The notes under the pieces are model-generated. The model was not told where the DNA came from and made no database searches. It saw nothing but the letters and a program-made list of their open reading frames with translations. From an uncultured Gammaproteobacteria bacterium (lineage in GTDB: Bacteria > Patescibacteriota > Patescibacteriia > Patescibacteriales > GWC2-42-12), in NCBI GenBank assembly GCA_964560005.1, contig CAZLKB010000004.1:12112-76111 (forward strand): a stretch of 64,000 nucleotides of DNA, read 5' to 3'. Positions 23,234-63,662 of this stretch are shown here, one piece after another. Made by a program: the position numbers and the translations under genes. Each line of letters starts with the position of its first letter. Positions within the stretch are counted from its first letter, which is position 1.

Positions 23234-23464
23234 AAAATGTAAATCTCAAAATGTAAAATTAGAAATTCTAAATCTTAATATCCCTGCCTGCCGGCAGGCA
23301 GGTAAACCCTAAACAAATCCAAAATCATAAATCCAAATATTTTAAACAAAATTTAATTTTTTAAATTTAAAATTTCGGTCATTTGAATTTGTTTAGAATT
23401 TAGGATTTAGATATTAGAATTTTAAATTTTGCATTGTCATTTTACATTTTGAGATTTACATTTT
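23234..23464. repeat. 231-nt imperfect palindrome with perfect 26-nt terminal arms (AT-word family A)
   Basis: AAAATGTAAATCTCAAAATGTAAAAT (23234-23259) is the exact reverse complement of 23439-23464. The interior is also roughly self-complementary and contains the 20-nt GC palindrome CCTGCCTGCCGGCAGGCAGG (23283-23302). Confidence 0.9.
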
Positions 23465-33399: not shown

Positions 33400-33535
33400 T
33401 TCTAATATCTAAACTCTAAACAATATCAAAATTCTAATATCAAATGACCAAAACAAGAATTCAAAAGCATTTATTTGGAATTTTGGATTTTGAACATTTG
33501 AATTTGTTTAGGATTTAGTATTTCGGATTTAGAAT
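33400..33535. repeat. AT-word palindromic spacer (CTAAAT/TTAGAA/TTTGAA words)
   Basis: The left arm is AAATTCTAATATCTAAACTCTAAACAATATCAAA. It roughly matches the reverse complement of the right arm CATTTGAATTTGTTTAGGATTTAGTATTTCGGATTTAGAATTT. The right arm is nearly identical to 23378-23420. Confidence 0.65.
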
Positions 33536-33543
33536 TTATTATT

Positions 33544-34267: not shown

Positions 34268-34429
34268 ATAAACAATTTCTAATTTTCAATTTCTCCCCCT
34301 CCACTAAAACTACGGAGGATAAATAATTTCTAAATAATGTTTTAATGTTTTAATTTCTTAATTGAAACATTAAATCATTGAAAATTGTTTGAAAATTGAG
34401 AATTGAAAATTGAAAATTATTATTGTTTA
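34268..34429. repeat. AT-word palindromic spacer (family B), about 160 nt
   Basis: The left arm is ATAAACAATTTCTAATTTTCAATTTC (34268-34293). The right arm is GAATTGAAAATTGAAAATTATTATTGTTTAT (34399-34429). An internal hairpin CCTCC..GGAGG is present. Confidence 0.6.
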
Positions 34430-40279: not shown

Positions 40280-40346
40280 AAATCAGTTGAAAGTGAAAAG
40301 TCATAAAGTTATAAAGTTAAAGCTTAAATTTAAAACTTTTAACTTT

Positions 40347-40774: not shown

Positions 40775-40860
40775 GTTTACCCTGTTAAATAATTTTGCCT
40801 ACGGCCTGCCTGTCCGGTAGGCAGGCAAAATTAGAGCGAAGCGCTATTTGACAGGGTAAA
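40775..40860. repeat. Composite palindrome (TTTACCCTGTTAAATAA arms around the CCTGCCT..AGGCAGG hairpin)
   Basis: GTTTACCCTGTTAAATAATTTTGCC (from 40775) roughly matches the reverse complement of GGCAAAATTAGAGCGAAGCGCTATTTGACAGGGTAAA (to 40860). The core hairpin lies at 40805-40825. Confidence 0.65.
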
Positions 40861-41904: not shown

Positions 41905-42014
41905 ACAATAACCAATGAATTAATGACTTAATTTTCAAACAAGGATGATTATGCTTTGAAAATTTAGACATTGAAAATTTATTGAAAATTGAAGCTTGAA
42001 AATTGAAAATTAAT
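41888..42014. repeat. AT-word palindromic spacer (family B)
   Basis: CTATTTTCAATTTTCAAACAAT (from 41888) faces TTGAAAATTTATTGAAAATTGAAGCTTGAAAATTGAAAATTAAT (to 42014). Confidence 0.6.
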
Positions 42015-42045
42015 ATAATTTATTTCTAAAAAAGTCCATGCGTTA

Positions 42046-42780: not shown

Positions 42781-45700
42781 TTACTGAATATTAATCGGCG
42801 TAGCGCTAATTGTATTGGAATTGGCGCTTTCTCGGCTATCAGCATCTATAGATCTTACTATGAAATTATAAAGTGTGCTATTAGTTAAACCGGTGACAAC
42901 TTGCGGATTAGCGGCCGTACCGGCTGTAGGAGAGGCAACAAACTTGGTAAATACGGTTCCGCCCTGATTATAATATACTCTATAACTGACCGCGCCCGAC
43001 GCCGCATCCCATGATAATCTCACTGATCCATTGCCAATACCCCTTAAAGCTAAATTAGCCGGAGGCGCGAAAGGTTTGGCTGAAATTTTATCGGAATTAA
43101 CGCTCTCCTTGCCATCGGCGTTAACTGATCTAACTATTAAATTATAAGTTACGCCATTGGTTAGGCCGGTAATAACCTGCGGATTAGCGGCCGTGCCGGC
43201 TGTGGAGCTGGCAATAAATTTAGTAAATACGGTTCCGCCCTGATTGTAATATACTCTATAGCTGACCGCACCCGGCGCCGCGTCCCATGATAGTCTTACC
43301 GATCTATCGCCAATACCCCTTAAAGCTAAATTAGCCGGAGGCGCGAAAGGTCTGGCAGAAATTATATTGGAATTAGCGCTCTCTATATTATCAGCAATAG
43401 ATCTAACTATAAATTTATAAGTTAATCCATTAGTTACCGGAATAATTTGCGGATTAGTAGCCGTTCCCGCCGTAGAAGTAGCGACAATAGTAGTAGTAAA
43501 GGTATCTCCGCCATTAGTATTATAATATACTTTATAGCTATTTGCGCCCGACGCCGCCTCCCATCTGACTTTTACTTCGCCATTACCTACGCTGACTAAA
43601 GATAAATTAACTGCCGCCGACGCGAACGGAGTGGCCGCAACCGTAGTGGTGGCGCTCTTATTGCCGGACGAATCATAAGCCACTACGCCGAAGCAATATT
43701 TTATTCCATTGGTAAGATTACTGGTGGTCGCTGTTTTATTATTAGTTGCGAATGAAGCGCCGAAGTTGACATTAGCGCCGCATGTATCATTGGCTTTATA
43801 AAACACTCTATAATTTACCGCTGTGTCATCATTTTCAGTCCAGGTTAAGGCGACTTGCCTATCCTTAGGAGTGGCTGACAATGAAGCCGGCTGTACCGGC
43901 GGCGTAGTATCGGCCGGCACCACGGTTACTTCGTTAGAATAAGCGCTTTCGTCGCCATTAGAGCTTAGCGAAGTAACCGCGAAATAATATTTTACCCCGT
44001 TGGTTAAATTGTTTATGGTCGCGGAAGTACCGGTGCTTGGAACAGATTTTGTATAGGTTTTTGGCTTAGTGCCGTAGTATACTTTATAGCCGGTGGCGCC
44101 GGAGATAATATCCCAGGTTGCGCTTACTCCACCGCCCGAATCCAAAGCTGTAACCTCTAAATTACTTGCTGCACTGGGCAGGCTTTCCCTAAAAAAATAA
44201 AATTCTTTTAAAATATCAACCTGGCAGGTGCCGGAGTTACTGCCACAAGGTGTATTTATGGAATTAGCCTCTGAACAGCTGCTGTTTGAACAGCTACAAA
44301 TCGAATTATAATCGCATTTGCCGCTCTTATCACTGCAGATATCCCCCTTTATCTTATCCGTGCAATCGCCGGTTCCGTCATCGCAATTTAAAGAATTGCT
44401 TCTGCAGATTAAATTCATACCCCTGATGGTGGCTGTGTTGGAAATCGCGGGTAAGTCATCGGCCGTTCCCGGTCCGCCCGCGTCGCGGCAGTAAGACAAT
44501 TTCATGTTAGTCGGGGTGCAGGTACCTCCTCCAGCCGGACATCCTGAAGGTTCTTCCCACGGCTCCCAGGTGCCGTCAGACTGCATCTGCGGCCAAGGAT
44601 TATCGCAAACCATTAAATAAACATCGGCTTCTGCCGGAAAAGAGCCTCCTCCGGTTCCGACCACTGTAGCCGTGGCGGTAATTTCCGCTTCGCCCGTGGT
44701 TACTGTGGGCAGAGCTTTAACTAATTTTTTATTATCTGGTAAAGTTCCTGTGGTTGGAGCTAAAACTTTAAAAATATCTTCATTGCTGGAACTCCAACCC
44801 CAAGTCCAGTAGTATATATCGGTTAGCGGATATAAGACCGTGCCGTCGGCCGCGTAGGCGTTAGCCGCGAACAGTTTGTCGCTGTCCTTAATCTTATCAA
44901 AAGCCGCCTTATCGTTCGGATCATTATCTGTAATATTGTCCTTATTGGTTTGAAAAAGATACGAAGCCGGTTCAAGCTCGGCGTAGACAATCTTGCAAAT
45001 GCCGTGGTCGTCGCCGCTGTCCGGCCTGGTGGTGAAAAACCAAATTTTACCATTATAAGTTTTACCGTTAAATTGAGAATTCGGTGAAAAAGGTACCGGA
45101 GTCATGCCCACGCCATAAGCGCTTAAGACTCCTTCTCTTATAGCATCGGCGGTATTACCGTCCCCTTTAATAATAACATAATATTGCCTGGACGGCGCTA
45201 AAACTTTTTCCGGCCTGAATTCCAGCACTGATTTGCCGACCGCGTTGTCGTAGCCGCTAACCGTGCCTTTAATGGCGCAAAAATTTCCTGTCAGCGCCAT
45301 TGCGTCTGATGTGAATAATTTTTTGACTAGGGGTATCTTGGCTAGGACTGATTTTACTCTGGCTAAAAAGGTGGGTTTATAAGCCGCGGTTAAATATTCG
45401 GTATCGGCCGGGCAAGGATCTAGGTTGTAATAGCCAGCCACGATAATATTGCCGTTAAAGCTCTCTGTCTGCATGGACTGGCTAAAAGTGGCTTGAATTA
45501 CCGCGTTGCGGCAGACGTTTTCGCTGAAAGGCGCTGGTTGTTGACCGGCCACTGCCGGCCTGGCGTGGCAGCAAGTGTCCTGCCCGCAGCCGTTCGTATC
45601 AGGACTGTCGCAACTATTATCATCCGTACAGCCGCAGCAAAGTCCGCGCTCATTAGTATCACTGGTACAGGGCGATTGATTCGGCTTGCAGGTTAATTTA

Positions 45701-48700
45701 AGCTTTGCGCATTGGTCCGGGTTAGCATCTGGATCGCAACAACAAGTTCCGCAGGGAGGAGTGGAAGGAATATTACCGGTATCAGTTAGGCAAGAAAAAC
45801 CAACACATCTATTAATATCACAGCTTGGCGAAGCGTTGTAAGCGGAGCAATTTTCGCCGAAATCCGGCTTCTGGCATTGATTATCGCAATTATCTGTCTT
45901 ATAGTCGCCATCTTTTACCTTCGTAGTGTCGCAACTATTAGCATTAACACCGGTGCCGCAATTATAATAAGCGCAATAATTATAAGGCGGTTCAGAGACA
46001 TAATCTTCGCCGCCGCGACAAGCATTACTAATTTTGGCGTCAACACAGCAAGAGCCGACGCCGGCGGTAGAACAAGCCAAGGCTGTAGTTAACTGCGCGC
46101 AATCCTTACAAACTCCTTGCCCGCCGGCGGCCGAAGTATCGCAATATTTTCCGCTGGTGCCGGAACAATTGCAAGCGTCGTTGCTAGCGGATATATCTAC
46201 CAGGTTATTGGTGCCTCTGACCGTACAGCCGGTGCAAAGTCCAAAAGTGTCGTCCGTACTGCTAGTGCCGCTGCCGCAAGTGCCTTGGCACTTTAACGGC
46301 GCGCAACAATCCTCCGCGTCATGGCCGGCGCGGCAACAACAGTCGCAACTGGCGCTGTTGCTTGGCGCGACGGCGGCGCATTTGTTATTACCGGTGCAGA
46401 TTGAGCCGGCCGGGCAGACATTAGTATCAACCGCGCAAACACCGGCTCCATCCTGATTCAAACAATTAAAACCAATATCGCATGAAAAGCAAGTCAAAGT
46501 ATTTTCTGTACATTTACCGCCTCCGATATTAGTCCAGCCGGTCGGGCAGGAATAATTAGTGCTGATTTGCCATTTACTATTAACACAAATTGCTTCAACA
46601 TCATGGCTATTTACATCTTGAACCGTTTTTGGTAAATCGCAAGTTGGATCAATCTTTTTAACGCATCTATTGATTTTTTCTTCATATTCGCATAAATTTA
46701 ACTGGCAATATCCGCTCGTACCGCAAACATCGCCATTTTGTTTGCCCAGACAGCTGCCTGCCCCGCCAACGCATTTTGAACACGACGCCAAACTATTACA
46801 GCTAAAGTCGCAATCGCCGACGATGCGCGAACCGCTGTAAAGCTCGTTGACCTCGTCCGAGCTTAAAGCCCGGTTATATACGCGCACATCGTCAATAAGG
46901 CCGTTGAAAAATCTACTGCCATTGCCATTGGCGAACCAAGCTCGTCCGATCTGTACCGTTGAACCAGAATCATCACCCGGACCGCTGAGTCTTTCCCATT
47001 CCTTAGAACCATTCACATATAATATTATGTTGCTTGAGGTGTAGACGGTTACGACATGGTACCACTGGCCTGCACTAACCGGTTTTCCGGTGTCTGCTTC
47101 CGCGTTTCCGACATGCATGTTCCATTTTCCTAGCCTTACTTCGGTTCCTTTATCCCAAACCGCGTTATCGGTACAAAGAAAACAGCCCGGCTCATATATA
47201 GATTCTGGCTTCACCCAAGCGGCGTAAGATATCGGTTCATCATCAATTTTAAGCGGTGTATCAACATAAGTATTTGATCCGTTAAACTTAAGCGCCTGGC
47301 CGATTCTGCCGGGCACAATATTAGAGCCTGTTAAATTATTGAGTGTACCGTCCTGATCCTGGCCGGAACTGTCAGAGGCTTTCTTTCCGGCTATGTCTAT
47401 ATCCGCGCTGTCAAAAGTCCACCAGCCGATCAATCCGTTGCTTAATGTACTGCCGCTACTAACCGAGCATTTGCCCGGCGAATTGGGACAAAAATAAGTA
47501 TCCGCGCATAAATTGCCGTAACCGGAGCAGGATTCAGCCGGAGCCGGTATGCATAGACAAGAATTATTACAGGTAAAACCAGGATCGCAGGCACCCGCTT
47601 GACATCCGGGTTCATTCACATTTGTATCGCAGGTGGAAACTTTACAAATACAGTCCTGGTTACAGTAATAACCAGGATCGCAGGCACCCGCTTGACATCC
47701 GGGTTCATTCACATTTGTATCGCAGGTGGAAACTTTACAAATACAGTCCTGGTTACAGTAATAACCAGGATCGCAGGCACCCGCTTGACATCCGGGTTCA
47801 TTCACATTTGTATCGCAACGCACTGGTTCTTGGCAGAGGCAAGAAGTAGTATTACAAACATACGGAGAAGTACATTTAGATTGAGTTATATCGCAATATC
47901 CTTTTTTAGCGCCATTATAACAAGGGTCGCCCGGACCAGGTTCAGTGTCAAAATCCCACTCATAAACCGAAGAATTATATTCGGGAAAGCAGGCTTCTTG
48001 GACGTCTACTCCGTCTCTGCATCTGCCTACGAATGGAGTGCCTTTAGGGCAGCAAAAATTAGTCGCGCCGCATTCGCTATCAATTTTACAGGTACCAACC
48101 GTGAAATTCAGGCCATTGCCGACCACTTCAGGGCTGTTTTTAACCACTCTTACCGGACCGGTAACCGCTTGTTGATGAACCGTAGTAACTGATTTGTCCG
48201 GATCCTGCCCCCAACTCTTGATGGCCGCTCCGGATTGATCATAATTTAAATAAAATCTTACCTTGCTATTAGTATCTTGAACTCCAAAATACTCGCCCCA
48301 TAAACTTACATCATCACCAACCTGCCCCATAATTGGCTTAATTTTACATAAGCTGGGCGCAAGCGGTTTATCTTGCTCAAAACTAAATTGCGATGGAGTT
48401 AACTTACTGGTGTCAATTAACCAGTTTTGGCCGCCGCTTTTAGCGATCTCCATAGCTATTAAACCTGATACTGTATTTTTTATTTCCGCCGGCACCTTGA
48501 CTATAACTTGCTTATCGCTCCAGATTGAATCGGCGCAGACTTCCGGAAAATTAAAATCCGCTTCCACTCCTTCTTTGACTGTACCCGATCCTATTTCTGC
48601 GCCGAAATATACCTTGCTATTTCCCCTAGTTGCTCCGAAGCCCTTGCCTCGAATCGTTACATATTGGCCTGTAGCCCCGTCAACCGGATCAAAAGAAGTA

Positions 48701-50937
48701 ATTATCGGCCCGGCGTAAGGCTCCGGCTCCTTGGTAAAAATTAAATAATTGCTATAAACATTATCAGTTTCATTAATGACAAAGCTGGAAGTCTTGCCGG
48801 TTGTTATATTAGGAACCGTGGCGGTTAATTGTTTATCATTAACCACGGTAGAAATTATGGCCGGAACACTTTCTCCCCGCTTGCCGAAATGAGTCTGGGT
48901 ATCGGTCAGCTTAATGCCGCTATAAGTGATTAAAGTATTCATTGCCCCTTTGTCTGGGGAAAGCTGGCAAAGGCCGGGCCGGGCAATTGTATTAACTAAA
49001 AAATCCGGTATAGGTGGATTAAGCGTGCTATCGTCGGAAAAACCGGCGCCAGTCGTAACTTTAATCGGACCGCTGCTTGTATTAGGCACCACCGCGATTA
49101 TTTGCGTATCGCTCCAACTTTGAGCGCAACCCGGACCGCTGGCCAGGTCAGCCGGTTCATTATTAAAAAAAACTAGGCCGCTGCCTTGATTAGCGCCGAA
49201 ATTTATGCCGATAATTGTGACAAAATTTCCAGGCGCGCCGTTGGGGATATCTTGATTACACTCTTGGCCCGGGCAATCCTCATCGGCCAGGCAGGCTGTA
49301 TTATTATCTTCGCAAAAACCAGTACTTAAGCAGATGGCGCCCTCGCAGTCGCTTTGGCTTGAACACGCCCGGTTGTTTTCGCAAAACCCGCCGACCGGAA
49401 AAACTCCGGTTATAACCGGCTGGCGCTGGCAGATACAACAACTAGTAGTCCCGGGAGCATAACCGGCCTTCTCGCATTCTGTTGGATTAGACGGTGGATT
49501 AGAATTTAGTGTGGTGCAAAATTGTGAAGCGCATAAATTATTACTACATGTCGCTGGAATACTTATGTCATTGGCGCAGGCCGCGCCATCGCAGGCGCCG
49601 CACTCGCCGCCGCAATCCACATCGCTTTCGCCCCCATCTTTTATGCCGTTGCAGCAATGGCCAGCTCGTATTTGTGTTGTAAACTCCTCTTGAGCAAGCT
49701 GACCCACCACATCACTGGCTCTAACCCTGAATGTATAATAATCATCTTTTTGATAACCGCTAGTATCATATTTATAGCTATGGCTTAAATTAGTTTGGCC
49801 TATACCGCCGGTTTTAATTGATTGTGGGAAACAAATTTCACCTGTTCCTCCTTGTTTTTCAGAACAAAACTGTATATCAGCAACTCCTGTATCATCTTTC
49901 GCCCAGCCGTCAACTAAATTCGCATTCTGAATTGAATCTAGTATACCACCAACATTTTGGCACATCTGCCTGCTTTCTATACCTGCTTGCGGTCCGCTCA
50001 CATCTATTAAATGACCGGTGGAGAAATAAAACTGACAAGGAGAACTATTATCGCAGCTTAAACTTTGATTATTTATTGAAATGATACTATTTCCATCAAT
50101 TGTTACCTTAAATCTGCTCCAAGGCGGAAAACAATTCGGTGTATTCTCCGGGTTGTTGCAAGGATCAGTATCTTTAAAGGTAACGATCCTGCGGTCGTTG
50201 GCGAAATCCCTGCTTTCACTATTAATTAATGGCGGGGTTGGGGCGGTTAATGCTCCCGTATTAGGATCAACATTATTTACTTTTTCCACTTTAAAATTGT
50301 TAGCATTTAGCGTAACCGTATTTGCTATGGCTTTATTAAAATAAACTTTGATCACCACATTTCTAATCACGCCTTCTTCCTCTTGCCCCATTTTGTTAGT
50401 CGGGATGGTTTTAGTAATTCTGAAATAATCACCTGAAGACGGAACGCAAGGGCTAATAGAGCAACCGTAGGAGCAACAATATTCTCCAGCTGCGCAGGGC
50501 GGATCGCAGACGTAGTTTGGTCCAGGCGGAGTGGTTATATCAGTTAAAGCATTAAAAATAAAGCTGACGATGGCGAAAGAAAATATTATCAGCAACAAGC
50601 CGATCAGCGCGCCGATTAAAACTTTTTTGGCCTTTTCTATCCTTTGCTCGTTCCCGGCTGCCGTCATCCAGAGAAAGCCGGCGTAGATAATTAACATGAC
50701 CGCGATGATGCCTAAGAAGCCTATGAACCATCTTATAATATTAGTGATGGTGGCATATAAATTCGTGCCGGCTCCGGCCAGGCCGGCGTCGCCAGCGAAT
50801 TGGTCCCCGCTGCCGCCGACCGCGTTCCACGCGTCCAAAGCGAAAGCTGATGGAGCCAATATCAAATGAGCCACGGCCAATATAGCTATAACCAGACTGA
50901 TGAAAATGATAAATTTTTTTATCCGTTTAATTGTCAT
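42781..50937 (-). CDS. Giant (2718 aa) surface protein with an N-terminal VirB2/TrbC-like T4SS-pilin-type two-helix module, followed by Ig-like, IPT/TIG, Cys-rich, LamG and five FN3 domains
   Basis: Signal peptide ...APSAFA. Pilin-like block: IRWFIGFLGIIAVMLIIYAGFLWMTAAGNEQRIEKAKKVLIGALIGLLLIIFSFAIVSFIF. IPT-like: GNFVTIIGINFG and GQYVTIRGKGFG. LamG-like: GLIGWWTFD...FNGLIDDVRVYNRALSSDEVNELY. FN3: SWDAAPGAVSYRVYYNQ. Confidence 0.8.
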   Translation of the reverse strand: MTIKRIKKFIIFISLVIAILAVAHLILAPSAFALDAWNAVGGSGDQFAGDAGLAGAGTNLYATITNIIRWFIGFLGIIAVMLIIYAGFLWMTAAGNEQRIEKAKKVLIGALIGLLLIIFSFAIVSFIFNALTDITTPPGPNYVCDPPCAAGEYCCSYGCSISPCVPSSGDYFRITKTIPTNKMGQEEEGVIRNVVIKVYFNKAIANTVTLNANNFKVEKVNNVDPNTGALTAPTPPLINSESRDFANDRRIVTFKDTDPCNNPENTPNCFPPWSRFKVTIDGNSIISINNQSLSCDNSSPCQFYFSTGHLIDVSGPQAGIESRQMCQNVGGILDSIQNANLVDGWAKDDTGVADIQFCSEKQGGTGEICFPQSIKTGGIGQTNLSHSYKYDTSGYQKDDYYTFRVRASDVVGQLAQEEFTTQIRAGHCCNGIKDGGESDVDCGGECGACDGAACANDISIPATCSNNLCASQFCTTLNSNPPSNPTECEKAGYAPGTTSCCICQRQPVITGVFPVGGFCENNRACSSQSDCEGAICLSTGFCEDNNTACLADEDCPGQECNQDIPNGAPGNFVTIIGINFGANQGSGLVFFNNEPADLASGPGCAQSWSDTQIIAVVPNTSSGPIKVTTGAGFSDDSTLNPPIPDFLVNTIARPGLCQLSPDKGAMNTLITYSGIKLTDTQTHFGKRGESVPAIISTVVNDKQLTATVPNITTGKTSSFVINETDNVYSNYLIFTKEPEPYAGPIITSFDPVDGATGQYVTIRGKGFGATRGNSKVYFGAEIGSGTVKEGVEADFNFPEVCADSIWSDKQVIVKVPAEIKNTVSGLIAMEIAKSGGQNWLIDTSKLTPSQFSFEQDKPLAPSLCKIKPIMGQVGDDVSLWGEYFGVQDTNSKVRFYLNYDQSGAAIKSWGQDPDKSVTTVHQQAVTGPVRVVKNSPEVVGNGLNFTVGTCKIDSECGATNFCCPKGTPFVGRCRDGVDVQEACFPEYNSSVYEWDFDTEPGPGDPCYNGAKKGYCDITQSKCTSPYVCNTTSCLCQEPVRCDTNVNEPGCQAGACDPGYYCNQDCICKVSTCDTNVNEPGCQAGACDPGYYCNQDCICKVSTCDTNVNEPGCQAGACDPGFTCNNSCLCIPAPAESCSGYGNLCADTYFCPNSPGKCSVSSGSTLSNGLIGWWTFDSADIDIAGKKASDSSGQDQDGTLNNLTGSNIVPGRIGQALKFNGSNTYVDTPLKIDDEPISYAAWVKPESIYEPGCFLCTDNAVWDKGTEVRLGKWNMHVGNAEADTGKPVSAGQWYHVVTVYTSSNIILYVNGSKEWERLSGPGDDSGSTVQIGRAWFANGNGSRFFNGLIDDVRVYNRALSSDEVNELYSGSRIVGDCDFSCNSLASCSKCVGGAGSCLGKQNGDVCGTSGYCQLNLCEYEEKINRCVKKIDPTCDLPKTVQDVNSHDVEAICVNSKWQISTNYSCPTGWTNIGGGKCTENTLTCFSCDIGFNCLNQDGAGVCAVDTNVCPAGSICTGNNKCAAVAPSNSASCDCCCRAGHDAEDCCAPLKCQGTCGSGTSSTDDTFGLCTGCTVRGTNNLVDISASNDACNCSGTSGKYCDTSAAGGQGVCKDCAQLTTALACSTAGVGSCCVDAKISNACRGGEDYVSEPPYNYCAYYNCGTGVNANSCDTTKVKDGDYKTDNCDNQCQKPDFGENCSAYNASPSCDINRCVGFSCLTDTGNIPSTPPCGTCCCDPDANPDQCAKLKLTCKPNQSPCTSDTNERGLCCGCTDDNSCDSPDTNGCGQDTCCHARPAVAGQQPAPFSENVCRNAVIQATFSQSMQTESFNGNIIVAGYYNLDPCPADTEYLTAAYKPTFLARVKSVLAKIPLVKKLFTSDAMALTGNFCAIKGTVSGYDNAVGKSVLEFRPEKVLAPSRQYYVIIKGDGNTADAIREGVLSAYGVGMTPVPFSPNSQFNGKTYNGKIWFFTTRPDSGDDHGICKIVYAELEPASYLFQTNKDNITDNDPNDKAAFDKIKDSDKLFAANAYAADGTVLYPLTDIYYWTWGWSSSNEDIFKVLAPTTGTLPDNKKLVKALPTVTTGEAEITATATVVGTGGGSFPAEADVYLMVCDNPWPQMQSDGTWEPWEEPSGCPAGGGTCTPTNMKLSYCRDAGGPGTADDLPAISNTATIRGMNLICRSNSLNCDDGTGDCTDKIKGDICSDKSGKCDYNSICSCSNSSCSEANSINTPCGSNSGTCQVDILKEFYFFRESLPSAASNLEVTALDSGGGVSATWDIISGATGYKVYYGTKPKTYTKSVPSTGTSATINNLTNGVKYYFAVTSLSSNGDESAYSNEVTVVPADTTPPVQPASLSATPKDRQVALTWTENDDTAVNYRVFYKANDTCGANVNFGASFATNNKTATTSNLTNGIKYCFGVVAYDSSGNKSATTTVAATPFASAAVNLSLVSVGNGEVKVRWEAASGANSYKVYYNTNGGDTFTTTIVATSTAGTATNPQIIPVTNGLTYKFIVRSIADNIESANSNIISARPFAPPANLALRGIGDRSVRLSWDAAPGAVSYRVYYNQGGTVFTKFIASSTAGTAANPQVITGLTNGVTYNLIVRSVNADGKESVNSDKISAKPFAPPANLALRGIGNGSVRLSWDAASGAVSYRVYYNQGGTVFTKFVASPTAGTAANPQVVTGLTNSTLYNFIVRSIDADSRESANSNTISATPINIQ
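42790..43630. repeat. Three tandem 276-nt (92-aa) FN3-coding units; the last two are near-identical
   Basis: GCTAAATTAGCCGGAGGCGCGAAAGG recurs at 43049 and 43325, a period of 276 nt. The peptides are PFAPPANLALRGIGDRSVRLSWDAAPGAVSYRVYYNQGG and PFAPPANLALRGIGNGSVRLSWDAASGAVSYRVYYNQGG. Confidence 0.8.
47579..47817. repeat. Perfect 93-nt tandem repeat, 2.6 copies, inside the giant gene
   Basis: 47579-47671 and 47672-47764 are identical base for base, and a third copy is identical for a further 53 nt. The unit encodes CDTNVNEPGCQAGACDPGYYCNQDCICKVST. Confidence 0.95.
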
Positions 50938-50955
50938 TGTGGGCTAAATATTTTC

Positions 50956-50995
50956 TGTCATTGCGAGCCCCGCATCTGCGGGGCGAAGCAATCTC
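50956..50995. repeat. GC-rich hairpin element of the TGTCATTGCGAG...CGAAGCAATCTC type
   Basis: The sequence is TGTCATTGCGAG-CCCCGC-atct-GCGGGG-CGAAGCAATCTC, lying 19 nt upstream of the giant gene start. Confidence 0.75.
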
Positions 50996-51054
50996 ACGAA
51001 CCTAAATCCTGGCTTAAATCTCGCCACCTGGGATTAATTTTTTTATTAAATATT

Positions 51055-51378: not shown

Positions 51379-51550
51379 ACAATTTGTATATCACTCTGCG
51401 TCAGAGATAGCAAAATGAAATTATTATTTAAAATAATTAAAAAATTAATATTGATATATACGATGCTTATTCCCACCAGCCTACCGGTAGGCTAGCCTGC
51501 GCGGTGAAGACAAAAGGTAACGGAGTTTCGTCCGCGAGTGACAATTAATT

Positions 51551-54565: not shown

Positions 54566-54577
54566 GAGGGGAAATTA

Positions 54578-54685
54578 ATGCAAAATGTAAAAATCAAAAT
54601 GGAAAATGACAGTGTAAAGTTAAAAAATAATTAATAATTTTACATTTTTAATTGTCATTTTGATATTTACATTTTCAACTTTAAA
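54578..54685. repeat. AT-word palindromic spacer (family A) in the divergent region between the 1004-aa gene and rel
   Basis: CAAAATGTAAAAATCAAAATGGAAAATGACAGTGTAAAGTTAAAAAATAATT roughly matches the reverse complement of AATAATTTTACATTTTTAATTGTCATTTTGATATTTACATTTTCAAC. Confidence 0.7.
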
Positions 54686-54691
54686 TTTTTT

Positions 54692-54720
54692 TTGACTTAT
54701 ACCCAGTTTTATAATAATAT
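54692..54720 (+). promoter_or_regulatory. Candidate promoter for rel
   Basis: TTGACT (54692-54697), a 17-nt spacer, then TAATAT (54715-54720), 35 nt upstream of the ATG. Confidence 0.3.
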
Positions 54721-54754
54721 TATAACATAAACAAAATAACAAAAGCAAATAGCC

Positions 54755-56224: not shown

Positions 56225-56264
56225 AAAATGTAGAGACGCAATGCATTGCGTCTCTACATCTTTT
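56222..56264. terminator. Bidirectional terminator: a perfect 32-nt palindrome between convergent rel and yqeY-like genes
   Basis: ATGTAGAGACGCAATG|CATTGCGTCTCTACAT (56228-56259), flanked by A6 and T4 runs. Confidence 0.8.
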
Positions 56265-56748
56265 ATTTCCCTAATAATTTTTTAACTAAGGCACCGACCC
56301 TATTGCCATCGGCTTTGCCCTTAACCTTGGCCATGGCCCGGCCCATGACTTTGCCGAAATCCTGAACTCCGGCAGCGATTATTTCTTTGATGATTTTTTC
56401 CAGCTCCTCGTCATTCAACTGCGCCGGCAGATATTTTTCTAAAATTTTTATTTCGTGCGTTTCCTTGTCAACCAAGTCCTGGCGCTTACCCTGCTGGTAA
56501 GCCTCCACTGAATCACGCCGTTTTTTTATCTCGCTGGAGATAACTTCGGTTATCTGGCCATCGGTCAGCTCAGCCCTGCCGTCTTGCCTGCCCGCCGAAG
56601 CCTCGGCGAAGGCGGGCCGCAAGCTAATTTCTTTGTTGCGCATAGCCGCGATTAACATCCTTAAGGTTGACAGCTCTTCGGTACGCCTTTCTTTCATGGC
56701 GATTTTCAGATCCTGATTAATTTGTTCTGATAATTTAGGCATAAACAT
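56263..56748 (-). CDS. GatB/YqeY-domain protein
   Basis: 161 aa with the YqeY-type blocks LKIAMKERR, EIKILEKYLP and GKVMGRAMAKVKGKADG. It sits downstream of rpsU, as in many Firmicutes. Confidence 0.8.
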   Translation of the reverse strand: MFMPKLSEQINQDLKIAMKERRTEELSTLRMLIAAMRNKEISLRPAFAEASAGRQDGRAELTDGQITEVISSEIKKRRDSVEAYQQGKRQDLVDKETHEIKILEKYLPAQLNDEELEKIIKEIIAAGVQDFGKVMGRAMAKVKGKADGNRVGALVKKLLGK

Positions 56749-56752
56749 ATTT

Positions 56753-56972
56753 TGTCATTGCGAGGAGCGCCTTTAGCCCCGGGCTTGACCCGGGGGACGA
56801 AGCAATCTCGCTCTCTGTCATTGCGGGCTCCCGCCCGCATCGCCAGCGAAGCGTGGCGGGCGCGGTGACCCGCAATCCACCCCGCACTTTGCGGGGCGGC
56901 TCGCCTCCCGCCCTAGGCGGGCAGGTCGGCTTTAAGGCCGGAATGACAATAAGACGGTCGCTCGCAATGACA
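56753..56972. repeat. 220-nt GC-rich MITE-like element with perfect 12-nt terminal inverted repeats
   Basis: TGTCATTGCGAG (56753-56764) is the reverse complement of CTCGCAATGACA (56961-56972). The interior is a chain of GC hairpins. These are ATTGCGGG..CCCGCAAT, CCCGCC..GGCGGG, CCCCGC-actt-tGCGGGG at 56880-56896, and CCCGCC-cta-GGCGGG at 56907-56921. Confidence 0.8.
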
Positions 56973-56983
56973 ATTCAAAGAGT

Positions 56984-57220
56984 TTACCATCTTTTTTTCG
57001 GCTCTTCTTTTAACTTGCCGATTTTCTTTAAATACTCTCTATTTGAATGAAGCTTCATGCCGACTAAAGCACGCTTTTTCTGCTGAGTTTTATTGATTTT
57101 CGGCTGAACATGCTGAATCTGGCGGGCTAAATACAATTTGCCGCTTTGCTGAAGCTTCTTATTGAATCTCCTTAGGAAACTCTCAAAACTCTCTCCCTTT
57201 TTTCTTTTAAATTCCGCCAT
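56984..57220 (-). CDS. rpsU: 30S ribosomal protein S21
   Basis: 78-aa basic protein. The block SFESFLRRFNKKLQQSGKL..AR matches the S21 pattern. Confidence 0.8.
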   Translation of the reverse strand: MAEFKRKKGESFESFLRRFNKKLQQSGKLYLARQIQHVQPKINKTQQKKRALVGMKLHSNREYLKKIGKLKEEPKKRW

Positions 57221-57256
57221 GTTAACACCTGCCTTTCTTTTTAATATTATTATTGT

Positions 57257-57348
57257 CCTACAAATCTACAAATCGTCTACAAATACTACAAATTCTCTTA
57301 AAATATTTTGATTTGTAATATTCGTAGCTGATTCGTAGATTTGTGGGG
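57257..57348. repeat. AT-word palindromic spacer (CTACAAAT words) between hisS and rpsU
   Basis: CCTACAAATCTACAAATCGTCTACAAATACTACAAATTC roughly matches the reverse complement of GATTTGTAATATTCGTAGCTGATTCGTAGATTTGTGGGG. Confidence 0.7.
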
Positions 57349-58803: not shown

Positions 58804-58814
58804 AGTAGAAAATT

Positions 58815-58920
58815 TAAAATGAAAATCTCAAAATGAAAAATGACAATGTAAAATTTAAAATTAGCTAATTCATAATTTTACATTTTAAACTGTCATTTTT
58901 AATTTTGATTTTTCAACTTT
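58815..58920. repeat. AT-word palindromic spacer (family A) between lepB and hisS
   Basis: It is centred on the perfect palindrome AATTAGCTAATT (about 58859-58870). The arms are TAAAATGAAAATCTCAAAATGAAAAATGACAATGTAAAATTT and AATTTTACATTTTAAACTGTCATTTTTAATTTTGATTTTTCAAC. Confidence 0.7.
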
Positions 58921-58923
58921 ACA

Positions 58924-59487
58924 TTAATATGAGTATTCCGGCGCGGAAAAAACATTAATCCGATTAAACGGCCAACCGCGGAGTAGCACTCGCCCGGTGA
59001 TATACTTCTCGTTCACCGCGCCGAAACTCCGGGAATCTTTAGAAGAATTGCGGTTATCGCCCAAGACATAAAATTCACTATCGCTTAAAGTAATAGTTTC
59101 TTCATTTAAGCCGTAAGTCCTTAAGTCCGATGACAAATATTGTTCTTCCAGCTGAAAACCGCTCGGCTGCGCTTGATTATAGATATAAACAAAACCGTCT
59201 TTAATCTGAATTTTCTCTCCGGGTAAGCCGATGATTCTTTTTATGAAAAATTCTTCCGGGTTCCTGGGGTAGCGGAAAACCACGATATCTCCTCGCACCG
59301 GCTCGTGAAAACGATAGCTGATTTCATCAATAATTAGGTATTCTTTATCATAAAAATTCGGCTCCATGGAAGCGCCCTTAACATAGAAGGGCTGAATTAA
59401 ATAATATCTGATAGGGATAATGATGGCTAAAGAAATTACTACGACTTTAACTAATTCAAAAATATAAGCTAAAAATTTTTTTAACAT
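58924..59487 (-). CDS. lepB: Signal peptidase I
   Basis: 187 aa with the catalytic Ser box GASMEPNF, the Lys box RGDIVVF..KRIIGLPGE, and GDNRNSSKDSR. Confidence 0.9.
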   Translation of the reverse strand: MLKKFLAYIFELVKVVVISLAIIIPIRYYLIQPFYVKGASMEPNFYDKEYLIIDEISYRFHEPVRGDIVVFRYPRNPEEFFIKRIIGLPGEKIQIKDGFVYIYNQAQPSGFQLEEQYLSSDLRTYGLNEETITLSDSEFYVLGDNRNSSKDSRSFGAVNEKYITGRVLLRGWPFNRINVFSAPEYSY

Positions 59488-59802
59488 AATAAATAAGAAT
59501 AAAAAGCTTTATTCAGCGGAGTTTACCCCGTTAAATAATACTACAACTGTTTATTCGCAATTACAATAACCTTTTAATTGTGTCAGTAAATATAATACCA
59601 AAAAGCTTTATTTAGCGGGGTAAATAAGCTTAGAACATTATTAGTATTTTGTCTACTTGTTATTATAACTACTTACTCGAAAAAAAACAACCCCTTAACT
59701 AATAAACGACGATACACGCAGTTGACACCACCGATAAAAAAACAGTAAAATACATCCTTAAATCTCTAATTAGTATGATGTTCAACATTAAAACTCCATC
59801 GT

Positions 59803-59889: not shown

Positions 59890-61398
59890 ATGTCTGACTG
59901 GGTAAATAAAAAAATAGATTTATTAAAAGCCGATCTCCGGTCTGAAGCCGACGCGCCTGCCGCCGGCCAGTTCAACCATCAGCCGAAAAATAAACCGCTT
60001 AAACGAGTGGCTGTTTTGTTAACTTTCATATTTATCGCCTTTGTGGTCTTTGCTTTTAATAGGAACTCCAGCGAACCGTCATCGTCTTGGTTCTATAACC
60101 TGCCGATTATCAGCCAGATTAAGCATCTGGTTGAAAGTGCTGATGTTAAATTAAAAGGCGAGGACAGAGATCAAGTAAATATCCTGCTTTTGGGAATTGG
60201 CGGCAAAAATCATGACGGCGGCCTGTTAACCGATACTATAATTTTAACCAGCTTGAAGCCCAGCGAAAAAAAATTATCTTTGCTTTCCATACCGCGCGAC
60301 CTGGCCGTGCCGATTGAAAACATGGGCTGGCAAAAAATAAACAGCGTCAACGCTTATGCCGAAATGAAAGAGCCCGGCTCCGGCGGGCTGGCGGTCAGCC
60401 AAACCATCAGCGATGTTTTCCAAACTCCGATTGACTATTACTTAACCGTGGATTTCACCGGCTTTGAAAAAATTATTGACGACTTGGGCGGAATTAAAAT
60501 AACCGTAGACAACACTCTTGATGATTATAAATACCCGATTTTAGGCAATGAAGATTCGCCCTGGGATCAAAGATGGGAACATCTGCATATTGAAAAAGGC
60601 GAGCAAACCATGAATGGCAGTCTAGCTTTAAAATATGTCCGCTCCAGGCATGCCGGAGGCGTAGAGGGTTCTGATTTCGCCCGCTCGCGCCGGCAGCAAA
60701 AAGTCTTGGAAGCGGTTAAAGCAAAAGTAATGTCGCTTAACATTTTATTTAAACCCGCCATGATTTCTAAGACTATTTCCGATATCCAGGAAAATTACAG
60801 CACCAATTTAAAAATTTGGGAAATTATCAAGCTGTGGGAGCTGGGAAAAAATATCAAGAGCGAAGATATCTCTAGCAATGTGCTGGATAACAGCCCGGAC
60901 GGACTCTTAGTGGACACCGTGGGCGTTGACGGCGCCTATCTCCTATCGCCCAGAAGCGGCGACTTTTCGGAAATACAATATTTAATCAATAATATTTTTG
61001 CCGAGGCGCCGGTAAGCGACAAAGCGGTAATTAAGCAGCAGCCGGCCACGGTTGAAGTTAGAAACGGCACCTGGATAAACGGTTTAGCCAATAAAACCGC
61101 TTTGGATTTAGAAAAATACGGCTTTGATATAGTCCGCATCGGCAACACCAGCCAAAAAAACTTTGAAAAAACAGTCATCTATGATTTGACTTACGGCGCT
61201 AAAATTCAAGCGCTGACGATTTTAAAAAATAAAACCAACGCCAATGTTTCCTTGGGCATACCCGAATGGCTGATTAACGATCTGGCTAAAGAACTGGCCA
61301 TAGAAAAAACAGCCAAACCTGTCCAACCGGATTTTATTATTATTCTCGGCCGGGATGCGGACTCCACGCAATCAGGCGTGGAAAATACGGCACAGTAA
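59890..61398 (+). CDS. LytR-CpsA-Psr (LCP) family cell-envelope phosphotransferase with a C-terminal LytR_C-like domain
   Basis: 502 aa with a TM anchor. LCP block: NILLLGIGGKNHDGGLLTDTIILTSL...LSIPRDL. It also has YVRSRH and RRQQKV. Confidence 0.85.
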   Translation: MSDWVNKKIDLLKADLRSEADAPAAGQFNHQPKNKPLKRVAVLLTFIFIAFVVFAFNRNSSEPSSSWFYNLPIISQIKHLVESADVKLKGEDRDQVNILLLGIGGKNHDGGLLTDTIILTSLKPSEKKLSLLSIPRDLAVPIENMGWQKINSVNAYAEMKEPGSGGLAVSQTISDVFQTPIDYYLTVDFTGFEKIIDDLGGIKITVDNTLDDYKYPILGNEDSPWDQRWEHLHIEKGEQTMNGSLALKYVRSRHAGGVEGSDFARSRRQQKVLEAVKAKVMSLNILFKPAMISKTISDIQENYSTNLKIWEIIKLWELGKNIKSEDISSNVLDNSPDGLLVDTVGVDGAYLLSPRSGDFSEIQYLINNIFAEAPVSDKAVIKQQPATVEVRNGTWINGLANKTALDLEKYGFDIVRIGNTSQKNFEKTVIYDLTYGAKIQALTILKNKTNANVSLGIPEWLINDLAKELAIEKTAKPVQPDFIIILGRDADSTQSGVENTAQ

Positions 61399-61404
61399 TA
61401 AATA

Positions 61405-61509
61405 ATGCAAAATTGAAAAATCAAAATTAAAAATTACAATGCAAAATGTAAAATTATTAATCCATTTTTAACTTTACATTGTCATTTTACATTTTGAGAT
61501 TTACATTTT
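61405..61509. repeat. AT-word palindromic spacer (family A) between the LCP gene and der
   Basis: The right arm CATTGTCATTTTACATTTTGAGATTTACATTTT (61477-61509) is identical over 33 nt to 23432-23464. Confidence 0.85.
61479..61507 (+). promoter_or_regulatory. Candidate promoter embedded in the family-A motif upstream of der
   Basis: TTGTCA (61479-61484), a 17-nt spacer, then TACATT (61502-61507). The ATG lies at 61518, so any transcript would have almost no leader. No Shine-Dalgarno sequence is visible. Confidence 0.3.
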
Positions 61510-61517
61510 GAATTTCT

Positions 61518-62942: not shown

Positions 62943-63062
62943 ATTTTCAATTCTCAATTCTCAATTTTCAAACAATGTTATAATTCTTCAATTTCTTAAT
63001 TAACTAATTGAAAATTAAATCCTTGAAAATTGTTTGAAAATTAAAAATTAAAAATTAAAAAT
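62941..63062. repeat. AT-word palindromic spacer (family B) between der and pth
   Basis: AAATTTTCAATTCTCAATTCTCAATTTTCAAACAAT faces GAAAATTGTTTGAAAATTAAAAATTAAAAATTAAAAATTTT. It ends at the pth ATG. Confidence 0.7.
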
Positions 63063-63065
63063 TTT

Positions 63066-63620: not shown

Positions 63621-63629
63621 TACAAATAA

Positions 63630-63662
63630 AAAACACCCTCGCTAATACGAAGGTGTTTTTTT
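63630..63662 (+). terminator. Rho-independent terminator after pth
   Basis: AACACCCTCG (63632-63641) pairs with CGAAGGTGTT (63648-63657), followed by a T run. Confidence 0.7.

What the first reader, a model, noticed from the sequence alone, without database searches (positions are those of the whole stretch)
61477..61517. Conserved 33-nt AT-rich motif (TTGTCA-17-TACATT) placed 8-16 nt upstream of several start codons: possible combined terminator-promoter module giving near-leaderless mRNAs
CATTGTCATTTTACATTTTGAGATTTACATTTT is identical over 33 nt at 61477-61509, ending 8 nt before the der ATG, and at 23432-23464.

Oriented variants lie just upstream of other starts:
- hisS: 31/33 identical, ending 12 nt before the ATG at 58803.
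- The 1004-aa surface protein: 29/33 identical, ending 16 nt before the ATG at 54565.
- dnaG: the 26-nt 3' part, ending 11 nt before the ATG at 23222.
- rel: a 7-nt-deleted copy at about 54650-54675, about 80 nt upstream of the ATG.

The motif contains a -35-like TTGTCA and, exactly 17 nt later, a -10-like TACATT. I see no Shine-Dalgarno sequence between the motif and the ATG for der, hisS and dnaG; the surface-protein spacer I did not assess.

Each copy is one arm of a long palindrome. The opposite arm could therefore terminate the upstream gene while this arm promotes the downstream one. I do not know of a description of such a module.
Basis: partly seen in the sequence, partly recalled or inferred. 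Interest (0 to 1): 0.65.

Follow-up and report, generated by a model that had tools for sequence, protein, structure and literature searches.

The report
Mobile palindrome arm, possible portable promoter
The 33-nt motif is the end-repeat of a small selfish palindromic DNA element, related to the "intervening sequences" that split ribosomal RNA, that has spread through the spacers between genes in many ultra-small (CPR/Patescibacteria) bacteria. It sits at a fixed 11-12 nt from downstream start codons, so it may also act as a portable promoter.

Summary
The 33-mer is exact at 23432 and 61477. Variants precede hisS, dnaG, a surface-protein gene and rel, and each is one arm of a ~120-nt AT-rich palindrome.

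The motif is not specific to this genome. The same ~56-nt heptamer-periodic arm occurs in more than 117 Patescibacteria contigs, always as outward-facing inverted pairs. Its reverse strand encodes the start (ATG-xAA-AAT-GAC, giving M-x-N-D-x-x-K-F-K-N) of a 123-aa PF05635/TIGR02436 "23S rRNA intervening-sequence protein". Full units are arm-ORF-arm, and the window's copies are ORF-less miniatures. The same element sits in helix 25 of a 23S rRNA gene, so there it is a true IVS. Relatives with 57-59% identical Der have a tight LytR-der-pth operon with no element. This operon has its own canonical promoter and terminator.

The terminator idea is not supported, and absence of SD is genome-wide. 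The link to start codons is real:
- 45% of start-facing arms end 11-12 nt before the ATG, against 4.6% of native spacers.
- The spacing does not depend on the partner arm.
- A pyrimidine at -1 is enriched.

All three fit an outward promoter starting at or near the ATG. I rate the identity at about 0.85 and the promoter role at about 0.45.

The parts
61399..61517 (.). ORF-less famA palindromic element that fills the LytR(stop 61396-61398)-der(ATG 61518) spacer
   Evidence: Inverted-repeat pairs I1, I2 and I7 show it is homologous as a whole unit to the hisS and surface/rel elements.
61460..61515 (+). START-facing arm (core 61480-61509, 61 bits).
61490..61492 (-). Vestigial S23p start codon: CAT on the + strand is ATG on the - strand. 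It is followed at once by TAA because motif position 9 is A.
   Evidence: Read from the sequence, compared with the ORF-bearing units.
61399..61458 (-). END-facing arm (core 61409-61438, 50.5 bits; TGTAATTTTTAATTTTGATTTTTCAATTTT type). It begins directly after the LytR stop codon.
58804..58923 (.). famA element that fills the lepB(stop 58924-58926)-hisS(ATG 58803) spacer. The START-facing arm has core 58816-58845 (-, 61 bits, 12 nt before the ATG). The END-facing arm has core 58891-58920 (+, 48 bits).
   Evidence: One search gives a fold of -30.9 kcal/mol with z -5.6.
54576..54690 (.). famA element in the divergent spacer between the surface-protein gene and rel. One arm has core 54582-54611 (-, 64 bits, 16 nt before ATG 54565). 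The other arm, 54646-54682 (+), has one heptamer deleted and lies about 72 nt before the rel ATG at 54755.
23234..23263 (-). START-facing arm (30 bits) that ends 11 nt before the dnaG ATG at 23222. It is the outer half of a split famA element.
23435..23464 (+). It is separated from 23234-23263 by a nested GC hairpin (about 23284-23303) and a TTTAGAA-type palindrome (about 23300-23430).
   Evidence: (I20, I21).
59722..59751 (+). Context: canonical sigma-70-type promoter TTGACA-18-TAAAAT (11/12) upstream of LytR. It is the likely promoter of the LytR-der-pth operon that contains the element.
63628..63661 (.). Context: canonical bidirectional intrinsic terminator directly after pth, marking the end of the operon.

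Best explanation
The motif is the core of the ~56-nt, heptamer-periodic terminal inverted repeat of a horizontally spreading palindromic element family of Patescibacteria (CPR).

The complete unit is about 490 nt and has the form arm - 123-aa PF05635/TIGR02436 four-helix-bundle gene ('23S rRNA intervening-sequence protein', S23p) - inverted arm. The gene's ATG and first ~12 codons lie inside one arm, on the strand opposite the motif. The four copies in the window are ORF-less miniatures of about 120 nt, with the two arms back to back.

These are elements of the same kind as rRNA intervening sequences. The same family is found in helix 25 of a 23S rRNA gene, but most copies sit in transcribed spacers between cistrons. 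They are usually co-oriented with the operon and fill the gap from stop codon to start codon. They are read through by RNA polymerase, so they are not terminators.

Shown: the identity, architecture, distribution, gain and loss at orthologous sites, polarity, and the 11-12-nt phasing to the downstream ATG.

Inferred: the start-facing arm is held at that distance because it supplies an outward promoter whose transcripts begin at or within a few nt of the ATG (leaderless or near-leaderless). This suits an organism without Shine-Dalgarno pairing, and it would offset any polarity caused by the insertion. The transcript hairpin may also be cut by RNase III, as in rRNA IVSs.
For: Distribution
- The pattern TGTCATTTTNCATTTTGANNTTTNCATTTT hits more than 117 contigs, almost all from Patescibacteria MAGs of many lineages.
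- The conserved core spans about 56 nt.
- There are 225 arms of at least 30 bits in 904 kb, while shuffled sequence reaches at most 6.5 bits.
- Arms pair only outward: 69 pairs, none inward.

Link to the ORF
- In L010, L060, L089, L114, L116 and L018 an arm pair encloses a 123-aa ORF whose ATG is the reverse complement of motif positions 10-12.
- The ORF matches PF05635 (E 3e-18) and TIGR02436 (E 2e-23).
- The same architecture is found in Beckwith-, Wolfe- and Doudnabacteria.
- There are 3370 homologue clusters. The top 120 are 78-89% identical across phyla with a conserved M-x-N-D-x-x-K-F-K-N-E-F N-terminus, whereas Der is only 57-59% identical among relatives.
- Diverged PF05635 genes carry their own heptamer-repeat arms.
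- The full unit folds with its arms as a terminal stem.

IVS link
- A famA palindrome lies in 23S helix 25 in L105 and inside a 23S insertion in L032.
- The Coxiella IVS has terminal inverted repeats, an S23p ORF, heptameric repeats upstream of the ATG, and is excised by RNase III (PMC4990558).
- CPR rRNA insertions include 23S_rRNA_IVP ORFs and short IVS-site inserts (PMC11270868).

Insertion-like behaviour
- Orthologous LytR-der-pth operons lack the element. The closest relative has a TTTTCAA-type palindrome at the same spacer.
- The inter-core region is 0.72 identical within genomes and 0.57 between genomes (p=3e-5).
- The operon has its own promoter and terminator.

Promoter-type role
- The arm-to-ATG distance has its mode at 11-12 nt.
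- 45% of arm-to-ATG distances are 11-12 nt, against 4.6% of native spacers.
- Arms without a partner keep the peak.
- Y at -1 is 93% vs 67%, and C at -1 is 35% vs 13%.
- A23 and A9 are enriched in start-facing arms.
- The polarity is 25 to 8.
Against: Against the element identity and mobility
- No target-site duplication was found, and there is no known transposase in or near the units, so the mobility mechanism is unknown.
- PF05635 has no demonstrated mobility function.

Against the promoter role
- End-facing arms have the same consensus as start-facing ones, so any promoter would also fire antisense into upstream genes.
- The hexamers are weak.
- For the alternative -10 (T-nn-ATT, positions 29-34), which would put the start exactly at the ATG, the key second position is A in only 47% of arms and is not enriched in start-facing arms.
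- The two lines of support point to different hexamers.
- In the window only hisS (12 nt) and dnaG (11 nt) sit at the modal distance. der is at 8 nt and the surface-protein gene at 16 nt.

Limits of the data
- Gene calls were crude greedy ORFs.
- The loci were ascertained with a pattern taken from this window.
Confidence: 0.6

Rival explanations
1. RNA-level element only. The palindrome is co-transcribed, folds into a long A-U hairpin and is excised by RNase III, exactly as rRNA IVSs are. The fixed distance to the ATG reflects the processed 5' end or the needs of SD-independent translation initiation. The arms have no promoter activity.
For: The same family occurs as a 23S helix-25 IVS. RNase III excision has been shown for the Coxiella S23p IVS (PMC4990558). 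A review-type analysis lists RNase III among the factors retained in CPR (PMC12641178). The palindromes fold with z-scores from -3.9 to -6.7 in most cases, and the full unit forms a terminal stem. The element sits inside an operon with its own promoter.
Against: The arms show no positive co-variation; they are anti-correlated at several positions. The der hairpin is not better than shuffles (z -1.6). Arms with no partner keep the 11-12-nt peak, so the spacing does not need a hairpin.
Confidence: 0.25
2. The motif is a host-evolved combined module in which the upstream arm and the promoter arm form a terminator hairpin for the upstream gene, while the downstream arm is the promoter for the next gene.
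For: The element fills tandem spacers from stop to start. The hairpin is A-arm then U-arm on either strand. The start-codon phasing is real.
Against: The stems have no G-C pairs and are not flagged by the terminator scan, while canonical GC-stem/T-tract terminators are used elsewhere in the window. The element lies inside 23S rRNA genes. There is no arm co-variation. It is nearly absent from convergent gene pairs. Relatives have the same genes fused into a spacer-less operon. The arm sequence is explained by the coding start of an S23p gene.
Confidence: 0.07
3. Neutral selfish DNA. The arms do nothing for the host, and the distances to stop and start codons come from an insertion-site preference plus deletion bias in a streamlined genome.
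For: The element is gained, lost and replaced at orthologous sites. Copies are similar within a genome. Start-facing and end-facing arms have the same consensus. Stop codons overlap the arm ends.
Against: Nothing conserved lies between the arm and the ATG that an integrase could measure. Native spacers show no 11-12-nt mode. Enrichment of Y at -1 and of A23 and A9, and the 3:1 polarity, indicate selection on the start-facing side.
Confidence: 0.1

Closest known systems
23S rRNA intervening sequences carrying an S23p (PF05635) ORF (Leptospira, Coxiella burnetii, Brucella; Ralph & McClelland 1993; Warrier et al. 2016, PMC4990558), and the ORF-less IVS hairpins of Salmonella/Yersinia helices 25 and 45
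   Same: Both have terminal inverted repeats that pair into a stem around a ~120-aa four-helix-bundle ORF, with a total size of about 430-490 nt. Both have heptameric repeats directly upstream of or over the ORF start. Both have ORF-less short versions and a patchy, horizontally transferred distribution. One copy here is in helix 25 of a 23S gene.
   Different: Most copies, including all four in the window, are in spacers between protein-coding genes and not in rRNA. The arms are longer (about 56 nt), almost pure A/T, and conserved across CPR phyla. There is precise phasing to downstream start codons. RNase III excision has not been tested here.
Neisseria Correia repeat-enclosed elements (CREE/NEMIS), a MITE family
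   Same: Both are ~100-150-nt intergenic palindromic elements that are co-transcribed with neighbouring genes. From my own knowledge of that literature, Correia elements carry outward promoter-like ends and hairpins that RNase III can process. Both show presence/absence polymorphism at orthologous sites.
   Different: Correia elements create a TA target duplication and have no related ORF-bearing form. Here no target-site duplication was found, and an ORF-bearing parent unit exists. There is no sequence similarity.
REP/REPIN elements with RAYT (Y1) transposases
   Same: Both are inverted doublets of a short repeat that form a ~100-nt hairpin. Both are intergenic, multicopy and lack target duplications.
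   Different: REPINs are lineage-specific and are tied to a RAYT gene flanked by REPs. Here the flanked gene is PF05635. A Y1 transposase was seen next to one cassette only (L131), and none was found in the other 118 loci.
Leaderless-gene promoters (e.g. Actinobacteria, Deinococcus; a -10 element about 6-7 nt upstream of the start codon)
   Same: A T-rich hexamer ends 6-7 nt before the ATG when the arm-to-ATG distance is 11-12 nt. There is a Y(-1)R(+1) preference at the ATG, and no SD.
   Different: The hexamer's key A is present in only about half the copies. The same sequence also faces gene ends. No transcription start sites have been mapped for these organisms.

Membership tests
IVS-type element (rRNA intervening sequence with or without an S23p ORF) | Terminal inverted repeats able to form a stem that encloses the insert | tested here: met
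   There are 69 outward arm pairs. The palindromes fold as hairpins, and the full unit folds with a terminal stem.
IVS-type element (rRNA intervening sequence with or without an S23p ORF) | ORF of the PF05635 / S23p family inside the element (in the ORF-bearing forms) | tested here: met
   None of the window's own copies has the ORF.
IVS-type element (rRNA intervening sequence with or without an S23p ORF) | Location in 23S rRNA helix 25 or 45 | tested here: inconclusive
   This is met for L105 (helix 25) and for a 23S insertion in L032. It is not met for the window's copies or for most others, which lie between protein-coding genes.
IVS-type element (rRNA intervening sequence with or without an S23p ORF) | Excision from the transcript by RNase III without re-ligation | not testable with these tools
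   This needs RNA end mapping or an in-vitro cleavage assay. It is known for Coxiella (PMC4990558).
MITE (miniature inverted-repeat transposable element) | Short, non-coding, multicopy, with terminal inverted repeats | tested here: met
MITE (miniature inverted-repeat transposable element) | Target-site duplication flanking the element | tested here: not met
   No direct-repeat flank exceeded the control at any boundary offset or length.
MITE (miniature inverted-repeat transposable element) | Related autonomous element that encodes a transposase with the same ends | tested here: not met
   The ORF-bearing parent encodes PF05635, which is not a known transposase. No Y1 transposase recurs near the arms.
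MITE (miniature inverted-repeat transposable element) | Presence/absence polymorphism at orthologous sites | tested here: met
   This was shown at the der locus in relatives.
Sigma-70-type promoter | -35 and -10 hexamers 16-18 nt apart, with A at position 2 and T at position 6 of the -10 | tested here: inconclusive
   The match is 9/12 at 61479-61507. A at position 23 occurs in 67% of start-facing arms and 35% of end-facing arms. Many equal matches arise by chance.
Sigma-70-type promoter | Mapped transcription start downstream of the -10 | not testable with these tools
   No transcriptome data are available. The indirect evidence is the 11-12-nt phasing and Y at -1.
Intrinsic terminator | G+C-rich stem followed by a T tract | tested here: not met
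   The stems are A-U only and none is called by the scan. The element is tolerated inside 23S rRNA genes.
REPIN/RAYT system | Cognate Y1 (RAYT) transposase gene flanked by the repeats | tested here: not met
   tblastn with the L131 Y1 protein found no hit in the window or in the other 118 loci. Whole genomes were not available.
Known RNA family (Rfam) | Match to a curated covariance model | tested here: not met
   Only two tRNAs in the window reach the gathering score.

The most novel reading that the evidence does not exclude
PF05635 'S23p' four-helix-bundle proteins and their flanking heptamer-repeat arms form a previously unrecognised kind of mobile cassette. In this reading the (pentameric) protein binds its own heptamer arrays, as DNA or RNA, to promote spread or processing. 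The ORF-less derivatives have been domesticated across the CPR as portable leaderless promoters that break up operons in lineages that have lost Shine-Dalgarno pairing. This would give a function both to the long-enigmatic IVS protein family and to rRNA IVSs.
Probability: 0.15. Interest if true: 0.85.

Novelty: new variant of a known kind. Interest (0 to 1): 0.66.

Why it matters
IVSs and their S23p ORFs have had no known function or mobility mechanism for about 30 years. They have been treated as a curiosity of rRNA genes. Here the same kind of element, with a ~56-nt end sequence conserved across CPR phyla, is shown to have colonised ordinary operon spacers. It has ORF-bearing and miniature forms, a preferred polarity and a sharply fixed distance to downstream start codons.

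This has three consequences:
1. It explains much of the odd AT-rich heptamer 'filler' between genes in CPR genomes, a likely cause of fragmented assemblies and spurious small ORFs.
2. It provides a large natural data set for testing what S23p and its heptamer repeats do.
3. It gives a concrete, testable candidate for how genes are expressed in bacteria that lack Shine-Dalgarno pairing, namely leaderless transcripts from a portable promoter.

I found no description of it in the searchable literature.

Tried and rejected
1. Terminator function. The stems have no G-C pairs, the scan makes no call there, canonical terminators are used elsewhere, and the element occurs inside 23S genes.

2. Selected hairpin. 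Partner arms are not more complementary than arms from different elements, and they are anti-correlated at positions -3, -1, 10, 19 and 24. Part of this comes from ascertainment and from there being two arm variants.

3. A difference in the core between start-facing and end-facing arms. None was seen at p<1e-3 over all arms. Only the focused test found the A23 and A9 enrichment.

4. Target-site duplications: none.

5. RAYT/Y1 transposase association: one neighbour only, and none elsewhere.

6. Phage carriage: the motif is absent from viral contigs.

7. Rfam: no family matches.

8. The 11-12 nt as the native spacer length: rejected.

9. The 11-12 nt as hairpin-ribosome clearance: weakened, because arms without a partner keep the peak.

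10. General leaderless architecture in these genomes: only a weak TANNNT peak at gap 6, 10% against a background of about 4%.

11. My alternative -10 (T-nn-ATT at positions 29-34): it gives the right geometry, but A is not enriched at its second position.

12. TIGR-Tas arrays, which surfaced in the literature search: the architecture is different (36-nt tandem units), so I did not pursue them.

13. The source contig: only a 1.5-kb assembly fragment carries the identical Der, and it breaks at the flanking repeats.

Full report
OBSERVATION. The 33-mer is exact at 23432-23464 and 61477-61509, and a 2-mismatch copy lies at 58816-58848(-). None are expected by chance. They are 61480-61509(+), 61409-61438(-), 58816-58845(-), 58891-58920(+), 54582-54611(-), 54646-54682(+, one heptamer deleted), 23234-23263(-) and 23435-23464(+). 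The stated distances to the der, hisS, surface-protein and dnaG ATGs (8, 12, 16 and 11 nt) are right, and the gene identities hold. Each copy is one arm of a ~120-nt, 15-22% G+C imperfect palindrome that fills a whole spacer. The window also contains other heptamer-periodic palindrome families, of TTTTCAA and TTTAGAA types, in other spacers.

THE MOTIF IS PAN-CPR. Almost all are Patescibacteria MAGs: Falkow-, Kerfeld-, Uhr-, Yanofsky-, Staskawicz-, Nealson-, Moran-, Gottesman-, Taylor- and Brennerbacteria, among others. Conservation extends beyond the pattern I searched, to a ~56-nt core: A.TTTtaaATTTTacAtTGTCATTTT.CATTTTGATaTTTaCATTTT..ATTt. With a PWM threshold of 30 bits there are 225 arms in 904 kb, while shuffled sequence reaches at most 6.5 bits. 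Neighbouring arms pair only in the outward (-,+) arrangement: 69 pairs, none inward.

CONTEXT. Pairs lie overwhelmingly between tandem genes. In 31 of 69 pairs a stop codon lies within 30 nt on one side and a start codon within 30 nt on the other. Convergent contexts are almost absent. Stop codons overlap or abut the arm end, with modes at -2, +3 and +4. The distance from arm end to the downstream ATG has a sharp mode at 11 nt (21 cases) and 12 nt (14 cases). Looking backwards from the arms as a control gives no starts within 40 nt.

WHAT THE ARM IS. In five loci an outward pair encloses about 375 nt with a 123-aa ORF. The ORF belongs to PF05635 '23S rRNA-intervening sequence protein' (E 3e-18) and TIGR02436 'four helix bundle protein' (E 2e-23). 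Its start codon is the reverse complement of motif positions 10-12. TGTCATTTTnCAT read backwards is ATG-nAA-AAT-GAC-A, giving M-(Q/E/K)-N-D, and the inner extension of the arm encodes x-x-K-F-K-N. When position 9 is A, as in the window's exact copies, the frame reads ATG-TAA. Of the 225 arms, 167 keep the ATG but only 5 open a full four-helix-bundle ORF. The protein family is very large: 3370 clusters at E ≤ 1e-10. The top 120 are all ~123 aa and 78-89% identical, although they come from different CPR phyla, and they share the arm-encoded N-terminus. For comparison, Der is only 57-59% identical among this organism's relatives, so the cassette must move horizontally. Contexts fetched from Beckwith-, Wolfe- and Doudnabacteria show the same layout, with one arm over the ATG and an inverted arm right after the stop. 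More diverged PF05635 genes in my loci carry their own, different heptamer-repeat inverted arms: TTAGAAT/AATTAGG, TTTGTCA and GTTGTGG types. The first of these resembles the window's TTTAGAA family. So the various heptamer palindromes in the window are plausibly ORF-less derivatives of different S23p cassettes.

IVS LINK. Rfam scans of 18 loci placed famA elements inside 23S rRNA genes. In L105 an ORF-less famA palindrome, with a nested GC hairpin, begins at model position ~583. That is helix 25, a classical IVS site. In L032 a famA pair lies within an insertion between model positions 2608 and 2652. The published Coxiella IVS is a 428-444-nt element with terminal inverted repeats, an S23p ORF and tandem heptameric repeats just upstream of the ATG. 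It is excised by RNase III (PMC4990558). A survey of CPR rRNA insertions reports 23S_rRNA_IVP ORFs and many short inserts at IVS sites, but nothing outside rRNA (PMC11270868). The full unit in L060 folds with its arms as a terminal stem around the ORF.

INSERTION-LIKE BEHAVIOUR. LytR-der-pth synteny is conserved. Relatives with 57-59% identical Der have spacers of about 1-60 nt and no palindrome. The 80-81% relatives have palindromes, but L120 carries a TTTTCAA-type element where the window has the TTTACAT type. Within the window, whole elements including their loops are 81-90% alike (I1, I2, I7). Across the data set the non-conserved inter-core region is more similar within genomes than between them (0.72 vs 0.57, p=3e-5). 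The window's LytR-der-pth operon has a canonical promoter (TTGACA-18-TAAAAT, 59722-59751) and a canonical bidirectional terminator (63628-63661). The famA and TTTTCAA-type palindromes lie between its cistrons. No target-site duplication, no recurrent Y1 transposase and no phage copies were found, so the mobility mechanism is unknown.

TERMINATOR? Not supported. The stems have no G-C pairs and are not called by the scan, while classical terminators are used elsewhere in the window. The two arms of a pair do not co-vary positively. The der hairpin is no better than shuffles (z -1.6). The element is also tolerated in the middle of 23S rRNA genes.

PROMOTER?
- The SD argument fails, because almost no gene in the window has an SD. 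Loss of the anti-SD is known for about half of Parcubacteria (PMC9297842).
- End-facing arms share the same consensus as start-facing arms.
- Against that, four independent observations point to a function of the start-facing arm at the DNA level. First, 45% of arm-to-ATG distances are 11-12 nt, against 4.6% of native short spacers (p=4e-14). Second, arms with no detectable partner keep the peak, with 8 of 19 at 11-12 nt and 13 of 19 at 9-13 nt, so the hairpin is not needed. Third, the base before these ATGs is a pyrimidine in 93% of cases against 67% (p=1e-4), and C in 35% against 13% (p=5e-4). This is the usual Y(-1)R(+1) start-site preference.
- Elements also have a 25:8 polarity, with the GAnATTTACAT-type arm towards the start. 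The ORF-bearing units have the same polarity.

Two hexamer assignments fit a 17-nt spacer. TTTnCA (positions 6-11) with T-nn-ATT (positions 29-34) would start it at the A of the ATG when the distance is 11 nt. The data do not decide between them. Element-free genes show only a weak leaderless-type signal.

VERDICT. The identity of the motif, as the terminal inverted repeat of an S23p/IVS-type palindromic element with the window copies being ORF-less miniatures inside transcription units, is well supported (about 0.85). An outward promoter giving leaderless or near-leaderless mRNAs is the best current explanation of the start-codon phasing (about 0.45). RNase III-type processing without promoter activity is the main rival (about 0.25).

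CAVEATS. Gene calls are greedy long ORFs. The loci were ascertained with a pattern from this window. Only 8 kb per locus was available. Some MAG labels (Gammaproteobacteria, Spirochaetia and others) are unverified.

Noticed in passing
window 62943-63065, 34290-34426, 41871-42015, 27528-27605, 36612-36710, 19880-19907: A second family of ~120-nt AT-rich heptamer palindromes (TTTTCAA/TTGAAAA units) fills other spacers, for example der-pth from stop codon to ATG. It has the opposite arm polarity to the TTTACAT family. In relative L120 this family occupies the LytR-der spacer where the window has the TTTACAT family.
   Followed up: partly
window 33386-33543 and 23300-23430; L027 about 3830-4450; L002 about 2290-2780: A third heptamer-palindrome family (TTTAGAA/TTTAGGA) resembles the arms that flank diverged PF05635 genes in L027 and L002. 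At 23300-23430 it is nested, together with a GC hairpin, inside a split TTTACAT-type element.
   Followed up: partly
window, all gene starts (e.g. 1096, 1898, 9036, 12589, 13775, 25964, 26823): Almost no gene has a Shine-Dalgarno sequence. Many starts are preceded by TTAATAA-like, stop-codon-rich A/T runs 5-20 nt upstream.
   Followed up: partly
window 50950-51000, 56749-56990, 23284-23303, 40805-40830, 51479-51500: There are dispersed GC-rich hairpin repeats (GTCATTGCGAG...CGAAGCAATC type and CCTGCCTGCCGGCAGGCAGG type). Some are nested in the loops of the AT-rich palindromes, and the same is seen in L105 and L119.
   Followed up: no
window 42808-43609 and 47567-47845 (inside the 2718-aa ORF 42781-50937): A giant surface-protein-like ORF contains tandem coding repeats of 276 nt (3 copies, 73-89% identical) and 93 nt (3 copies).
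   Followed up: no
L028 2811-2841, L050 469-499, L054 5444-5474, L093 488-518, L103 344-374: In several loci the arm's inward ATG is in frame with a long host-like ORF, giving N-termini such as MQNDNVKLKI- fused to MurB-like, ligase-like or other sequences. Either the element has supplied a new start codon to host genes, or the frame stays open by chance.
   Followed up: no
L131 1317-1772 (also L132, L133): A Y1 (IS200/RAYT-type, PF01797) transposase gene lies next to a PF05635 cassette in a Wolfebacteria contig, and a PemK toxin gene lies on the other side. No Y1 homologue was found in the other loci.
   Followed up: partly
L032 1-4800: This 23S rRNA gene is interrupted many times. It has a group I intron (1108-1402), several further insertions and three TTTACAT-type palindromes (57-164, 499-598, 3825-3907).
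   Followed up: partly
L001 (Logan contig SRR12133404_1115927, 1491 nt): The only public contig with an identical Der protein ends within about 37 nt upstream and 29 nt downstream of the gene, that is, at the two flanking palindromes. The repeats apparently break short-read assemblies.
   Followed up: no
L031, L041, L048, L053, L056, L063, L065 (assembly CAZVCF01) and others: MAGs labelled Gammaproteobacteria, Spirochaetia, Nitrospirae, Phycisphaerae, Pirellulales or Pacearchaeota carry the motif, and CAZVCF01 has it on at least seven contigs. The labels are probably wrong or the bins mixed.
   Followed up: no
window 57249-57348 and 40280-40346: There are further short-period repeats in spacers: CTACAAAT units forming a palindrome upstream of the ORF at 56263-56748, and AAAGTTA units at 40280-40346.
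   Followed up: no
window 54714-54742 (- strand): An extended -10-like TGTTATAAT with an upstream TTGCTT/TTGTTA lies on the minus strand between rel and the palindrome. It could transcribe the surface-protein gene through the whole palindrome, which would then form a 5' leader.
   Followed up: no
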